Source: Candidatus Omnitrophota bacterium (GTDB taxonomy: Bacteria > Omnitrophota > Gorgyraeia > Zapsychrales > Zapsychraceae). Taken from it: a stretch of DNA of 64,000 bases. The DNA lies in NCBI GenBank assembly GCA_050250375.1, contig JBFWOS010000002.1, positions 77,547-141,546 of the forward strand, read 5' to 3'. The notes under the pieces were generated by a model. That model made no database searches, was not told the origin of the DNA, and was given only the letters and a program-made list of their open reading frames with translations. Positions 48,549-54,350 of the stretch are shown here, one piece after another; the stretch's first letter is position 1, and the number at the start of each line of letters is the position of its first letter. The translations under genes were made by a program, and so were the position numbers.

Positions 48549-51500
48549 ATGTTTATTTTTTTTCGTGAGTTATTCACTAAAACTTCGCTGAGAATCTTTG
48601 TCTGGAGCGTAACCTTCTGTTTGCTTTTGGGACAATTTGCGGTCCCCGGAAACCTTTACGCACAGTCCAACATCATGCCTGAACCAGGGATGTTGATTAC
48701 ACAGAGTTCTTCGTTTTCTCCTTCTGTTCTAAAAGGCCTTACAATCCATCCTGACCAACCGTTCCATTTTGATTTCTTTGTTGATAAAGGTGAATCCAGG
48801 GGCAATGATATTGAATTTGAAGCCGAATCACTCAGGCTGATCAAATATTTTATGGCCTCTCTGGCCATTCCGGAGAACGACCTTTGGGTAAATCTTTCTC
48901 CGTATGAGCAGGACCGTATTATTCCCGAAGAGTTTGGGGTGACCGAAATGGGCCGGGACCTTTTGATGCAGGATTATCTGCTCAAACAATTCACGGCATC
49001 GCTCATGTATCCGGAGGAGCAGCTCGGAAAAAGATTCTGGGACCGCGTTTATAAACTGGCCTATCAGAGATACGGAACAACAGATATACCGGCCAACACG
49101 TTTAATAAAGTCTGGATCGTTCCGGACAAGGCCGTTATTTACGAACAGGACAATACGGCCTATGTTGTCGAGAGCCGATTGAAGGTTATGCTCGAGCAGG
49201 ATTACCTGAGTCTGACATCGGGATTCGTTAAATCCGATAAAGTTTCAGAAGTCAACGGACAATCTTTGGACAACATTTCCTCCGAAGTCATAAAAGAAAT
49301 TCTTATTCCGGAGATAGAGCGTGAAGTGAATGAAGGCGAGCATTTCGCCAAGTTGCGGCAAATATATCATTCCCTTATCTTAGCCACCTGGTATAAGGAA
49401 AATATACGACAAAGTCTCATTAATCAGATCTATTCCGATCAGAACAAGATGGAAGGGATCAATCTCGAGGATAAAGATATAAAGATGAGTATTTACAATC
49501 AGTACCTCGAGGCATTTAAGAAAGGGGTTTATAATTATATCCGGGAAGATTATGACCGGTATAAAAACCAGGTTGTTCCTAGACAATATTTTTCAGGCGG
49601 GATGAAGATCAAGCCGGTGATTACTAAAGCCAAAGCGATTAATACAACGGTATTCTCGGGAGATATGGCCATGATTTCAGCCAGATTTGACCTGGCCGGC
49701 GGCGGTAAGATTATTGATCAGAAATCTAATGCCGTTGATCAGGCGCAAAACGGTGAAACAAAAAAACAAGTTTCATCGACGTTGGCCGGAATGAACGAAT
49801 TATATGCCGCCATCATGGGGCAGATGTGGGATCCGTTGACACTCAACAAATTTTCTCAAAAGAAACTCGCCGATGTTGGCCGGGTCCGGAATGAGGAATG
49901 GAAACAAAGAGGATATGACCGTTTCCGGTCTCTGCCGGCTCAATTGATGCTTTATACCTGGTATGATGCCCAGGAAAGTAAGGTGCTCAAGTTCGAAGAA
50001 AATTTAACGGCCGTGATTAATCATGCATCGGATGAAGAAAAACTCAAGGCTCATTGGGCCCGTGGAATAAAAACCCTGTATCATTTGAGATTTCAGGGAA
50101 ACCATCCTGAGAGCTTTGAGCGGGCATATTTAGATCATTATTTCTTACAGCAATCAATTCATCAATATGTTGCTCGTCTCATTAATCATGACGCCGAAAC
50201 CATTCCCATGGAATATCTGTGGGGATTGGTGGCCATGCTCGATCCGATGGTCTATCACCCGCATTTTTTAAAAGAAGACTGGGGAAATGATGCCGCCCTG
50301 GCCATACCTTCGGGGGAAGCCAGGTTGATTATGCAAAAGAAGGCCGCCGACCTCATGCTTTCTTTATTTGAAAAATTTGATCAGGAAAAATTAACCCGTC
50401 TTTTAGAAAGGGCCTTTCGTGTAACGCCGGAAGAATGGGATCAGGCGGGTTACCGTTTACCGTATGTTGATTTTGCGGACGATAAGAACGGGTTTTTCTT
50501 TTTGTTTCAAAAAATTGAAGTCGATCCAGATAACACGCAAGACCAGATATTTTTGTTGGCCAGATCCAGGGAATACCTCGAAAAACATGTGACCTTTGCC
50601 GATGCCGGTGCGAAGACCGAAAAAAATGGTTTATTCCCGGACAGCCGGGCGAAATCCGAATTTACCTCCCCCTCACCGGACGATCCATTAAAACAAAGGA
50701 TCAGAGCCGTCATCGAGAAGTCTGAGAAAGATCATTTATATTATTATCGTCTGGTGTATGGTTCTAAATTTTTCCGTGACACAACCGGGATCACATTTGA
50801 GATTGAACAGCCGCAACCTGTTTACGAAACAAATGATTTTAATGAAATCCGCGACATAGTCATCGCATGGCACAAAAGAGGACTGCAAACGATGTATATG
50901 ACCAAGATGACTGCGAATGGTGAGGTGGATCTAAATACATATTGGAAACATCTAAAACTGTTTTACATTGGCGACCGCGAACATCCTAAATCCATCCTGA
51001 TTGCTGGCACGAATTATCCGAGCGGGAATATATTGCAGATAGAGTTTATGGCTACTGACCCGCAGTTTGAAGGCCGTGGTTATATCAAAAAACTGCTAGC
51101 AACGGTTATCGAGCGGTACCAACGAGATTATGAAATCGGCGGGGTATTTCTTTTTGATGACGTCGACTATTTGAAGGAAATCGGATTTAGACATGAGAAT
51201 GGTGAATACCGTTACAGTTCCCCGGTTACTGTTGAATCGGTCCAACAAAAAGATGAATCCATGGTTGGTGCTGTTAATCATTTTATGGAAGAACGATCTC
51301 ATGAACTGAAACGATTATTCGAACAATCCACAACGGTAACAGCCGATAAAGCCAGATTGTTGTCTTTACAGTGGCGTTCGGCAATGATGAAGACTTGGGA
51401 TGATGGCAAGTCAATTATTCATACGGCCGAGGAACTGGGAGAAATCGGTGCGCGCATGAATGCGTTATGGAAGGAAGCCGGATTCGACCGGTATGGTTCC

Positions 51501-54350: not shown

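What the first reader, a model, noticed from the sequence alone, without database searches (positions are those of the whole stretch)
49810..52385. Tandem internal duplication of a ~340-aa Trp/aromatic-rich module, each copy followed by a different enzyme-fold domain
Copy 1 spans aa ~420-755 (49810-50810) and copy 2 spans aa ~935-1280 (51350-52385). They share a string of co-linear motifs:
- 'EEWKQRGYDRFRSLPAQLMLYTW' / 'ALWKEAGFDRYGSWPAQMMLLNV'
- 'EEKLKAHWARGIKTLYHLRFQGNHPE' / 'QEKLTAYWLNGVKYASHLRYYGTHPE'
- 'PMEYLWGLVAMLDPMVYHPHF' / 'PLEYLWGLIVMLDPLVHNPDF'
- 'EEWDQAGYRLPYVDF' / 'QQWTDAGFRSPYVEF'
- 'DQIFLLARSREYL' / 'DQVFLLARPQQFF'
- 'YYYRLVYGSKFFRDTTGI' / 'RYFYKHVFGSKFFQAETGL'
Identity is roughly 30-35%, so the duplication is ancient and under constraint. 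Copy 1 is followed by the GNAT-like domain and copy 2 by the methyltransferase-like domain. This suggests a repeated adaptor-plus-catalytic-domain cassette.
Basis: seen in the sequence. Interest (0 to 1): 0.6.

Follow-up and report, generated by a model that had tools for sequence, protein, structure and literature searches.

The report
Duplicated helical domain in Omnitrophota enzyme-string
A 1,933-residue exported protein of a probable Omnitrophota bacterium carries two old, diverged copies of an undescribed 340-residue helical domain; one is fused to an acetyltransferase and the other lies next to a methyltransferase-like domain, these blocks are swapped between closely related genomes, and the gene sits behind a c-di-GMP riboswitch.

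Summary
In ORF 48549-54350, aa 419-748 and 942-1274 align at 32-35% identity (BLASTP E=1.7e-57; Smith-Waterman z=76 against shuffles).

The repeated unit is an all-alpha domain with no match in Pfam, NCBIfam, PDB sequences or Foldseek/PDB. It is rare: 53 clusters among 1.84 billion representatives, almost all inside 1,000-7,400-aa proteins.

Both copies keep the family's near-invariant His/His/Asp/Trp/Asp-Pro residues. Copy 2 is under purifying selection (dN/dS 0.13).

The domain after copy 1 is a GNAT, supported by Pfam, an intact QFEGRG motif and Foldseek. The "methyltransferase" after copy 2 is only weakly supported.

The host protein belongs to a huge Omnitrophota superfamily: Sec signal peptide, conserved N-domain, interchangeable cargo, conserved GGID C-tail.

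Orthologous loci show block-wise turnover. Copy1+GNAT is replaced as one piece in a genome whose neighbouring proteins are 92-99% identical. Copy2+MT has dS 3-4 times below the genomic baseline.

A conserved c-di-GMP-I riboswitch with a terminator precedes the gene.

The "adaptor plus enzyme cassette" reading is partly supported. The blocks move as units, but across the family the module's neighbours vary, and it has its own conserved polar site.

The parts
48185..48213 (+). sigma-70-like promoter candidate (TTGAAG-17-TATATT, with an extended -10 TG) just upstream of the riboswitch
   Evidence: Consensus scan. This is a pattern match only.
48221..48370 (+). c-di-GMP-I riboswitch aptamer (RF01051) with a ~66-nt insertion in the second hairpin
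   Evidence: 59.9 bits against a gathering score of 35, E 3.3e-9, full model matched. Conserved at the same place in the ortholog loci L003 (58.7 bits) and L004 (60.8 bits). The region is 91-98% identical to L003, while synonymous sites in neighbouring genes are near saturation.
48427..48459 (+). Intrinsic terminator (11-bp stem plus T-run) between the aptamer and the start codon; the likely expression platform
   Evidence: The hairpin has -13 kcal/mol and forms in the MFE fold of the leader together with a long closing stem around the aptamer. ON/OFF polarity was not resolved.
48549..54350 (+). 1,933-aa ORF: signal peptide, N-domain, copy 1, GNAT, linker, copy 2, MT-like, C1, C-tail
48549..48662 (+). 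Sec-type signal peptide (aa 1-38, ...PGNLYA|QS)
   Evidence: Basic n-region, hydrophobic core and an (A/S)-Y-A|Q motif are shared by the N-termini of the paralogs. Read from the sequence; no predictor was run.
48663..49748 (+). Conserved N-domain of the superfamily (aa ~39-400)
   Evidence: 47-73% identical in all 120 top hits. At least 492 metagenome loci encode it. No Pfam or PDB-sequence match.
49803..50792 (+). Module copy 1 (aa 419-748), with H512, R514, G517, H519, E521, D529, W558, D565-P566, R636, P638
   Evidence: AF2 model is all-alpha, pLDDT 74.8, pTM 0.82.
50799..51248 (+). GNAT acetyltransferase domain (aa ~751-900), with the QFEGRG acetyl-CoA loop at aa 839-844
51249..51371 (+). 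Linker (aa 901-941), beginning at the junction motif KDESMV. Homology with L003 resumes here.
51372..52370 (+). Module copy 2 (aa 942-1274), with H1035, R1037, H1042, E1044, D1053, W1082, D1089-P1090, R1157, P1159
   Evidence: dN/dS 0.13 and dS 0.28 against L003.
52446..53003 (+). Methyltransferase-like (Rossmann-like) domain (aa ~1300-1485). Candidate motifs: IGSAETPQLG (1329-1338), SITLD (1350-1354), VLDDP (1405-1409), SEGGYLIF (1426-1433).
   Evidence: Only weak hits. dN/dS 0.09. Fold not verified.
53004..53969 (+). C1: an unannotated ~320-aa cargo domain (aa 1486-1807), absent from the close ortholog in L003
   Evidence: 27-35% identical to regions of P0006, P0007, P0030, P0031 and P0033.
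53970..54347 (+). Superfamily C-tail (aa 1808-1933). Conserved core GGIDF...LPFLFG at aa 1844-1899.
   Evidence: Found in 116 of 120 top hits. Consensus, positions.

Best explanation
The repeat is a genuine, ancient internal duplication of an undescribed ~340-residue all-alpha domain. I call it the HHD-W module, after its near-invariant His, His, Asp and Trp.

The module sits in the interchangeable middle part of a Sec-exported multi-domain protein. That protein belongs to a very large Omnitrophota superfamily built as signal peptide, conserved N-domain, variable enzyme cargo and conserved GGID C-tail.

In this protein each module copy forms a block with a small transferase. Copy 1 is fused directly to a GNAT acetyltransferase. 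Copy 2 is joined by a ~35-residue linker to a divergent Rossmann/methyltransferase-like domain.

Most likely mechanism (inferred, not shown): the module is a ligand- or target-binding domain with a conserved polar, possibly metal-binding, pocket (H512/H519/E521/D529 plus W558 and D565 in copy 1). It would recognise a shared substrate and present it to the neighbouring transferase. The protein would then put two different modifications, acetyl and methyl, on related targets.

These blocks are also the units of evolutionary exchange. They are replaced or recombined as whole pieces between related genomes, with breakpoints in or near the inter-domain linkers.

Expression is gated by a c-di-GMP-I riboswitch with a terminator. 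That ties the protein to a c-di-GMP-controlled lifestyle switch.

Shown: the duplication, purifying selection, the GNAT identity, block exchange, the riboswitch, the signal peptide and the superfamily frame. Inferred: the binding or metal site, substrate presentation, methyltransferase activity, and the site of action outside the cell or in a host.
For: Duplication: E=1.7e-57 and z=76.

New domain: no Pfam or NCBIfam hit even at E<=10. No PDB sequence hit with 7- and 26-sequence profiles. The AF2 model (pTM 0.82) has no Foldseek match in PDB or BFVD: best E 0.09, TM <=0.32.

Rarity and context: 53 clusters of 1.84e9, mostly inside 1,000-7,400-aa proteins. 22 of 51 carry the same N-domain.

Conserved site: H519 and D529 are invariant in 26 diverse copies; H512, W558, D565 and P638 are >=90% conserved. 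The same picture holds in 59 copies. Both window copies keep every one of these residues.

Selection: copy 2 omega is 0.13 and MT omega is 0.09. Copy 1 is 58% identical across saturated synonymous sites.

GNAT.

Block behaviour: window nt 49731-51249 (copy1+GNAT) is replaced by unrelated DNA in L003, whose ten neighbouring proteins are 92-99% identical. dS is 0.28-0.38 across copy2+MT against 0.8-1.7 in those ten neighbours and ~1.2 in the N-domain and C-tail of the same gene. There is no junction motif between copy 1 and GNAT, while every other boundary has one.

The module lies next to transferases in distant proteins: P0129 and P0132.

The module has duplicated again in other proteins (P0082, P0127, P0153).

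Riboswitch. Signal peptide.
Against: No direct evidence that the module binds anything.

I could not check whether the conserved residues cluster in space, because model coordinates are not exposed.

Across the family the module's neighbours vary: Peptidase_M15 in P0163, plain linkers in P0082, and ~350 aa between module and MT in P0005. Pairing with a transferase is therefore not a defining feature.

GNAT and methyltransferase domains are among the commonest cargo in these proteins anyway (2026 preprint 10.64898/2026.06.07.730766), so adjacency could be chance.

Invariant His/His/Asp fits an autonomous metalloenzyme at least as well as a binding domain.

The MT-like domain lacks a canonical GxGxG motif and may be inactive.

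Export by Sec is hard to reconcile with acetyl-CoA- and SAM-dependent chemistry, unless the protein acts inside another cell.
Confidence: 0.45

Rival explanations
1. The module is itself an enzyme, for example a metal-dependent hydrolase or other His/His/Asp(Glu) metalloenzyme. It would be just one more bead on a multi-enzyme string. Its position next to GNAT and MT would be incidental, and the two copies would be two paralogous catalysts with diverged specificity.
For: H512, H519 and D529 are near-invariant, and E521 and R514 are often conserved, within a loop-plus-helix-start segment. These are typical catalytic or metal ligands. The module's neighbours vary across the family. The superfamily's cargo is overwhelmingly enzymes. 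pLDDT dips to 65-67 exactly at the H..H.E loop, as often happens at cofactor sites.
Against: No sequence or fold similarity to any known enzyme. Foldseek's nearest, non-significant, neighbours are helical-repeat, ARM and TOG scaffolds. Copy 1 is fused to GNAT without a linker or junction motif, and the pair is exchanged as one block.
Confidence: 0.3
2. The module is a passive helical spacer or scaffold, like the HEAT and Adaptin repeats common in Omnitrophota long proteins. It would space or orient the enzymes and bind no specific ligand.
For: All-alpha fold whose closest, non-significant, structural neighbours are helical-repeat proteins. HEAT repeats are frequent in paralogs and are reported as internal scaffolding in Omnitrophota giants.
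Against: Scaffolds rarely keep invariant His/His/Asp across 16-30% identity. pTM 0.82 indicates a compact, defined fold rather than an open solenoid. There is no internal repeat periodicity. Constraint is strong (omega 0.13).
Confidence: 0.15
3. The module is a divergent HEPN or KNTase_C-like domain, because both copies contain an R-x4-H motif (R514-x4-H519; R1037-x4-H1042). It would act as an RNase or as a nucleotidyltransferase-associated substrate-binding domain.
For: The R-x4-H motif is present in both copies. One of 26 diverse copies gave a one-off Pfam hit to DUF294_C at E 0.002. That family's relationship to HEPN is from my own knowledge.
Against: The Arg is conserved in only 45 of 59 copies, whereas the upstream His and downstream Asp are more conserved. 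The domain is about three times the size of a HEPN domain. No HEPN structure appears in the Foldseek hits. The Pfam hit did not recur in the other 25 copies.
Confidence: 0.05
4. The similarity is an artefact of composition or low complexity, or the ORF is not a real gene.
For: None found.
Against: z=76 against shuffles. Orthologs in three or four genomes have an intact frame and omega of 0.06-0.16. Thousands of homologs exist.
Confidence: 0.01

Closest known systems
Omnitrophota long or giant 'multi-enzyme' proteins (Archaeovorins, West-Roberts et al. 2023 bioRxiv 10.1101/2023.11.21.568195; 'multi-enzyme metabolic clusters', 2026 bioRxiv 10.64898/2026.06.07.730766)
   Same: Same phylum (by the names of the homologs). 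Same idea of many unrelated enzyme domains strung on one polypeptide (methyltransferase, GNAT, NUDIX, HATPase, HAD, glycolytic enzymes). Signal peptide or membrane association. Frequent internal domain repeats. The module also occurs in 4,000-7,400-aa proteins.
   Different: This protein is only 1,933 aa. It has a defined frame (conserved N-domain plus GGID C-tail) that the passages I searched in those papers do not mention. The repeated helical module has no Pfam model, so it is part of what those papers call the dark fraction.
Polymorphic toxin/effector systems (Rhs, CDI/CdiA, LXG): constant trafficking region plus swappable cargo. Comparison from my own knowledge.
   Same: Constant delivery-like regions with rapidly exchanged cargo blocks. 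Cargo differs between near-identical loci. There is a recombination signature.
   Different: The cargo here is bracketed on both sides rather than C-terminal only. No immunity gene is evident. The cargo consists of metabolic or modifying enzymes, not obvious toxins. No T5, T6 or T7 secretion marker was seen in the window. This is a resemblance in evolutionary logic only; membership was not tested.
GNAT acetyltransferases (Pfam PF00583)
   Same: The domain after copy 1 has the Pfam signature, the Q/R-x-x-G-x-G/A loop and a GNAT-like predicted fold.
   Different: Very divergent (22 bits). It is fused at its N-terminus to a 340-aa helical domain of unknown function and sits in an exported protein.
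Class I SAM-dependent methyltransferases (e.g. phosphoethanolamine N-methyltransferase, PDB 4r6w/3uj6; Pfam Methyltransf_11)
   Same: Weak alignment in register over the whole Rossmann core, including the 'L-x-P/E-G-G' strand motif (SEGGYLIF).
   Different: All hits are below significance. Motif I reads IGSAETPQLG rather than GxGxG. The best Pfam hit among the orthologs is Anamorsin_N (E 0.009), which to my knowledge is a methyltransferase-like fold that does not bind SAM. The domain may be a non-catalytic or repurposed Rossmann domain.
c-di-GMP-I (GEMM-I) riboswitches, e.g. Vibrio cholerae Vc2, and the abundant attack-phase c-di-GMP riboswitch RNA of Bdellovibrio (PMC3627812)
   Same: Full-length aptamer match above the gathering score, followed by an intrinsic terminator and located 5' of the gene. 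Found in a lineage suspected of a predatory or host-dependent lifestyle.
   Different: It carries a ~66-nt insertion in the second hairpin. It controls a multi-enzyme exoprotein embedded in a trp gene cluster. Only 2 of 80 paralog loci have one.
HEAT/ARM/TOG helical-repeat scaffolds
   Same: All-alpha, and the nearest (non-significant) Foldseek neighbours.
   Different: E >= 0.09 and TM <= 0.32. No repeat periodicity. Invariant polar residues.

Membership tests
GNAT acetyltransferase (PF00583) - domain after copy 1 | Pfam HMM score at or above the gathering threshold | tested here: met
   The isolated segment aa 751-935 scores 22.4 bits against a cutoff of 20.7, E 1.5e-4. In the whole-protein scan it scores 18.5 bits, below the cutoff, so this is borderline.
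GNAT acetyltransferase (PF00583) - domain after copy 1 | Acetyl-CoA pyrophosphate-binding loop Q/R-x-x-G-x-G/A (motif A) | tested here: met
   QFEGRG at aa 839-844, invariant in the orthologs (alignment A3).
GNAT acetyltransferase (PF00583) - domain after copy 1 | GNAT alpha/beta fold | tested here: met
   All top-50 Foldseek/PDB hits are GNATs, probability 1.00, TM to target 0.44-0.65. The model is only moderately confident in this part (pLDDT 58-80).
Class I SAM methyltransferase - domain after copy 2 | Significant HMM or profile match to a methyltransferase family | tested here: not met
   Best results: Methyltransf_11 E 0.02 in 1 of 4 orthologs, TylF E 0.21; PDB profile hits to PMT methyltransferases at E 0.06-0.14. 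A profile of the MT region hit none of the 167 fetched proteins outside the orthologs (best E 0.018), although several of them carry Pfam methyltransferase domains. hhalign was uninformative.
Class I SAM methyltransferase - domain after copy 2 | Glycine-rich motif I (E/D-x-G-x-G-x-G) after beta-1 | tested here: not met
   The sequence is KMIGSAETPQLG (aa 1327-1338), not canonical.
Class I SAM methyltransferase - domain after copy 2 | Seven-stranded Rossmann-like methyltransferase fold | tested here: inconclusive
   The AF2 model of this part has pLDDT ~25-40. No methyltransferase appears among the Foldseek hits, as expected from such a model.
Omnitrophota 'N-domain / cargo / GGID C-tail' superfamily (unnamed) | Conserved ~360-aa N-domain after a signal peptide | tested here: met
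   47-73% identity to all 120 top hits. Signal-peptide pattern with (A/S)YA|Q.
Omnitrophota 'N-domain / cargo / GGID C-tail' superfamily (unnamed) | Conserved C-terminal ~60-aa motif GGID..P..L.L.I.RD..G.P.P......I.G..PVI..I.P...LP.L.G | tested here: met
   aa 1844-1899. Shared by 116 of 120 hits.
Archaeovorin-type giant proteins (West-Roberts 2023) | Giant size (tens of thousands of aa), multiple TM helices, C39/S8 peptidase and SecA-like domains | tested here: not met
   1,933 aa. The only Pfam hit is GNAT. No peptidase or SecA domain. Only the enzyme repertoire is shared.
c-di-GMP-I riboswitch (RF01051) - upstream element | Covariance-model score above the gathering score over the full model | tested here: met
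   59.9 bits against 35, model positions 1-87. Orthologs score 58.7 and 60.8 bits.
c-di-GMP-I riboswitch (RF01051) - upstream element | c-di-GMP binding and ligand-dependent gene control | not testable with these tools
   Only the downstream terminator was found. Polarity is unresolved.
HEPN domain | Conserved R-x4-6-H motif in a four-helix bundle of ~120-150 aa | tested here: inconclusive
   The motif is present in both copies, but the Arg is conserved in only 45 of 59 copies. The domain is ~340 aa and gives no HEPN structural hit.
HEAT/ARM helical repeats | Significant structural or sequence match; repeat periodicity | tested here: not met
   Foldseek best E 0.09, TM <=0.32. No Pfam repeat hit.

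The most novel reading that the evidence does not exclude
The ORF would be one member of a system of thousands of Sec-exported, cassette-swapping 'effector strings' in Omnitrophota. A conserved N-terminal delivery domain and a GGID C-tail would bracket interchangeable enzyme cassettes, possibly separated by D-x-A-M processing or linker sites. The system would act on or inside host or prey cells. This particular member would be deployed under c-di-GMP control. It would use two copies of a structurally new His/His/Asp helical domain to aim an acetyltransferase and a methyltransferase-like domain at a host target.
Probability: 0.25. Interest if true: 0.8.

Novelty: new variant of a known kind. 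Interest (0 to 1): 0.52.

Why it matters
Omnitrophota are uncultured, ultra-small, probably host-dependent or predatory bacteria. Their long multi-enzyme proteins are known but largely unexplained.

This locus gives a small, tractable example with several unusual advantages:
- a defined frame of signal peptide, N-domain and C-tail;
- a new, rare and well-constrained domain family with a candidate active or binding site;
- natural 'experiments' in which closely related genomes have swapped whole domain blocks at one syntenic locus;
- a known regulatory input, c-di-GMP.

If the module proves to be a targeting or metal-binding domain for the adjacent transferases, it would show how these enzyme strings are wired. 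If the family proves to be an exported effector system, it would explain why cofactor-dependent cytoplasmic-type enzymes carry signal peptides.

Tried and rejected
(1) Word-index homolog searches with the module alignment and with the MT segment returned nothing, not even the query's own cluster. The exhaustive HMMER search replaced the first.

(2) Pfam, NCBIfam and PDB-sequence searches of the module gave nothing usable, using single sequences and 7- and 26-sequence profiles. The only hit was a one-off DUF294_C match.

(4) The AF2 model of GNAT+copy2+MT with a 4-sequence alignment reached only pLDDT 42. Only the GNAT part was usable.

(5) hhalign of the MT profile against methyltransferase domains from paralogs was uninformative. 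hmmsearch of the MT profile against all fetched proteins found only the orthologs.

(6) I tested whether block 'U' of P0004/P0005, which occupies the place of copy 1, is a degenerate module. hmmsearch and hhalign were both negative.

(7) I tested whether the inter-module segments of P0082 are GNAT- or MT-like. They are not.

(8) I asked whether the c-di-GMP riboswitch is a trait of the whole superfamily. It is not: 2 of 80 paralog loci have one, and there is only a sub-threshold hit upstream of P0005.

(9) Riboswitch polarity could not be resolved from MFE folding.

(10) The idea that the gene might be phage- or plasmid-borne was dropped, because the context is housekeeping (prfA, prmC, murA, trp genes).
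Full report
**1. The observation**

The finding lies inside one long ORF, window 48549-54350 (+), 1,933 aa.

BLASTP of the two regions gives a single collinear alignment, aa 419-748 vs 942-1274. It has 32% identity over 349 columns, E=1.7e-57. The Smith-Waterman score is 478, against 36.8 +/- 5.8 for 500 shuffles (z=76). A global alignment gives 35% identity over 322 positions, and 6 of the 7 Trp in copy 1 are matched by Trp in copy 2. 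No third copy exists in the window.

The duplication is therefore real and far beyond chance. 'Tandem' is loose, because ~190 aa separate the copies. 'Trp-rich' is modest: 2.1-2.3% W against 1.4% for the whole protein.

**2. What the repeated unit is**

Seven copies from this protein and its relatives align with conserved blocks HLRxxGxHxE, D, LWGLxxMLDP and RxP.

An exhaustive HMMER search of 1.84 billion cluster representatives found only 53 proteins at E<=1e-3, of which 27 are at <=1e-10. Nearly all hits are domains inside proteins of 1,000-7,400 aa.

- In 59 copies, H512, H519, D529 and W558 are conserved in at least 54.
- In a 26-sequence alignment of copies only 16-32% identical to copy 1, H519 and D529 are invariant, and H512, W558, D565 and P638 are >=90% conserved.
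- Both window copies keep all of these residues.

AlphaFold2 on the 7-sequence alignment gives a compact all-alpha model (pLDDT 74.8, pTM 0.82). Confidence is lower in the H..H.E loop.

Nothing known resembles the module:
- Pfam and NCBIfam are empty even at E<=10.
- PDB-sequence profiles are empty.
- Foldseek against PDB and BFVD gives only non-significant helical-repeat neighbours, best E 0.09 and TM <=0.32.

The module is therefore an undescribed domain family with what looks like a functional polar site.

**3. The flanking 'enzyme' domains**

The domain after copy 1 is a GNAT. Three lines agree:
- Pfam Acetyltransf_1 scores 22.4 bits on the isolated segment, against a cutoff of 20.7.
- The acetyl-CoA loop QFEGRG is intact at aa 839-844.
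- All top-50 Foldseek hits of the moderately confident part of a second model are GNATs.

The domain after copy 2 is only weakly methyltransferase-like. A 4-sequence profile hits phosphoethanolamine N-methyltransferases in register over the Rossmann core, at E 0.06-0.14. Single orthologs give Methyltransf_11 at E 0.02, Anamorsin_N at 0.009 and TylF at 0.21. Motif I is non-canonical (IGSAETPQLG), and the AF2 model failed for this part. It is nevertheless under strong purifying selection (omega 0.09).

**4. The host protein and its family**

Among the 120 listed hits, every organism name given by a source is Candidatus Omnitrophica or Omnitrophota, apart from two 'hydrothermal vent metagenome' records.

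All 120 top hits share the N-terminal ~370 aa at 47-73% identity. 116 of them share a C-terminal ~60-aa motif, GGID..P..L.LQI.RD..G.P.P...Q.....I.G..PVIINI.PV..LP.LLG. The middle differs completely between proteins: phosphoglucomutase, PGK, PGI, enolase, GAPDH, hexokinase, NUDIX, His-phosphatase, methyltransferases, HATPase, receiver domains, UbiB, M48, HEAT and others.

The N-termini are textbook Sec signal peptides with a conserved (A/S)-Y-A|Q site. The window protein reads ...PGNLYA|QS, which also confirms ATG 48549 as the start.

At least 492 metagenome loci encode the N-domain. The N-domain has no Pfam or PDB relative.

The literature describes Omnitrophota giant 'Archaeovorins' and 'multi-enzyme metabolic clusters' with methyltransferase, GNAT, HATPase, HAD and NUDIX content and signal peptides or TM helices. 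The passages I searched do not describe this N-domain/C-tail frame or the helical module.

**5. Comparative genomics of the locus**

The gene sits in a housekeeping cluster: prfA, prmC, murA, trpG, trpD, trpC, trpF, then the big gene, a 100-aa ORF, an M20 peptidase, a PD40 protein, and further on trpB and trpA.

The same synteny is found in two Logan assemblies, L003 (protein P0004) and L004 (P0002), and in a GTDB MAG, L001 (P0005). Only the interior of the big gene differs:

| Locus | Cargo between N-domain and C-tail |
|---|---|
| Window | copy1-GNAT-copy2-MT-C1 |
| L004 | the same, plus a NUDIX domain |
| L003 | U-GNAT'-copy2-MT, without C1 |

The window and L003 have neighbouring proteins that are 92-99% identical. 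Their DNA is collinear except in two places. Window 49731-51249, which is exactly copy1+GNAT (aa ~395-900), is replaced by 1.95 kb of unrelated sequence. Window 53006-53969 (C1) is cleanly absent.

Baseline dS in ten neighbouring genes is 0.8-1.7. It is ~1.2 in the N-domain and C-tail of this gene. It is only 0.28 in copy 2 and 0.38 in MT, and nucleotide identity jumps from ~0.73-0.75 to 0.91-0.97 across that block. Copy2+MT is therefore a recently recombined block.

In a neighbour-joining tree, copy 1 is sister to the clade formed by copy 2 and the P0005 module. The duplication therefore arose within this gene lineage, at or before the split from P0005's lineage.

The module has also been duplicated in other proteins:
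- P0082: two copies, 36% identical, E 5e-67, each other's nearest relatives.
- P0127: three copies.
- P0153: two copies, 91.5% identical.

**6. Does the 'adaptor plus enzyme cassette' idea hold?**

In favour:
- Both blocks behave as units of exchange.
- Copy 1 is fused to GNAT with no linker.
- P0129 has NUDIX, module, GNAT and an MT-like domain in that order, and P0132 has a methyltransferase directly before the module.

Against:
- P0163 has module then Peptidase_M15.
- P0082 has module-linker-module.
- P0005 has ~350 aa between module and MT.
- GNAT and methyltransferase are among the commonest cargo types anyway.
- The module's invariant His/His/Asp points to a site of its own.

My best reading (confidence ~0.45) is that the module is a ligand-, target- or metal-binding domain that works with the adjacent transferase. 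The main rival (~0.3) is an autonomous metalloenzyme.

**7. Regulation**

The 442-bp gap upstream holds three elements in order: a promoter-like site (48185-48213), a full-length c-di-GMP-I riboswitch aptamer (48221-48370; 59.9 bits against a gathering score of 35), and an intrinsic terminator (48427-48451 plus a T-run).

The aptamer is conserved in L003 and L004. Its region is 91-98% identical to L003, although synonymous sites nearby are near saturation.

Only 2 of 80 paralog loci have such a riboswitch. It is therefore a feature of particular family members, not of the superfamily. Polarity could not be resolved from folding.

c-di-GMP riboswitches are associated with lifestyle switching, for example the attack-phase RNA of Bdellovibrio (PMC3627812).

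**8. Verdict**

The object is a new, rare helical domain family, duplicated within an exported Omnitrophota enzyme-string protein whose cargo blocks are exchanged between close relatives and which is controlled by c-di-GMP.

It is a new variant within the known phenomenon of Omnitrophota long multi-enzyme proteins. It is moderately interesting in itself, and more so as a small, tractable model for that phenomenon.

Noticed in passing
window 48185-48459 (+): A promoter-like site, a c-di-GMP-I riboswitch (48221-48370, 59.9 bits, with a ~66-nt insertion) and an intrinsic terminator lie directly upstream of the big ORF. The aptamer is conserved in the orthologous loci L003 and L004. Only 2 of 80 paralog loci have one (L009, L038).
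   Followed up: yes
window 48549-49748 and 53970-54347; P0005-P0120: The ORF belongs to a superfamily of more than 3,700 proteins (at least 492 metagenome loci). Members share a constant N-domain (47-73% identity) and a constant ~60-aa GGID...PVIINI.PV..LPLLLG C-tail. Between them lies unrelated enzyme cargo, including glycolytic enzymes, NUDIX, kinases, phosphatases and methyltransferases. Neither constant part has a Pfam or PDB-sequence relative. Several paralogs can occur on one contig.
   Followed up: partly
window 48549-48662; N-termini of P0003-P0059: Family members start with classical Sec signal peptides ending in (A/S)-Y-A|Q. Cofactor-dependent 'cytoplasmic' enzymes (GNAT, MTase, glycolysis) therefore appear to be exported. 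This is a paradox unless they act in another cell or compartment.
   Followed up: partly
window 41968-59085; L001, L003, L004: The big gene, a 100-aa ORF, an M20 peptidase and a PD40 protein sit between trpF and trpB/trpA. They split a trp gene cluster, and the order is the same in four genomes.
   Followed up: partly
window 49731-51249 and 53006-53969 vs L003; L004 13,000 region: Cargo turns over at one syntenic locus. Copy1+GNAT is replaced as one block and C1 is deleted in a genome whose neighbouring proteins are 92-99% identical. A NUDIX domain is inserted in a third genome.
   Followed up: yes
window 51400-53005: Synonymous divergence against L003 is 0.28-0.38 here, compared with 0.8-1.7 in ten flanking genes and ~1.2 in the N-domain and C-tail of the same gene. 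This is the signature of a recent recombination tract covering copy2+MT.
   Followed up: yes
window protein aa 372, 902, 1286, 1296, 1480, 1505, 1835, 1919: The short motif D-x-[AS]-[MV] occurs 9 times against 1.3 expected. Apart from one conserved N-domain site (aa 193), it falls at domain junctions, and none lies between copy 1 and GNAT. Across the family it is enriched 2.2-fold and often lies just before the GGID tail. It could be linker punctuation or a processing site. The pattern was spotted by eye, so the statistics are post hoc.
   Followed up: partly
P0082 aa 478-819 / 1013-1353; P0127; P0153 aa 1-323 / 934-1259: The same module has been duplicated internally in other proteins: 36% identity in P0082, three copies in P0127, and 91.5% identity in P0153.
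   Followed up: partly
window 53004-53969 (aa 1486-1807): 'C1' is another unannotated ~320-aa cargo domain. It is 27-35% identical to regions of P0006, P0007, P0030, P0031 and P0033. It contains a kinase-like 'NSND...DFDQG' stretch that I did not test.
   Followed up: no
window 54442-54744 (+): A 100-aa ORF immediately downstream is 95% identical in L003 and 87% in L004. It has no Pfam family and always accompanies the big gene.
   Followed up: no
window 1-64000: Nearly all ORFs of 150 aa or more are on the + strand. GC skew is positive in every 2-kb bin (0.07-0.22), consistent with a long leading-strand stretch. No tRNA genes were found in 64 kb.
   Followed up: no
L002 8591-11212; 16379-16428 and 18677-18731: A MAG labelled 'uncultured Planctomycetales' encodes the module core inside an 873-aa ORF, so the module may extend beyond Omnitrophota-labelled genomes. 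The same locus carries two nhaA-I riboswitch hits.
   Followed up: no
L001 4989-5040: A sub-threshold c-di-GMP-I-GGC hit (25 bits, E 0.004) lies upstream of the positional ortholog P0005. It may be a degraded or divergent riboswitch.
   Followed up: no
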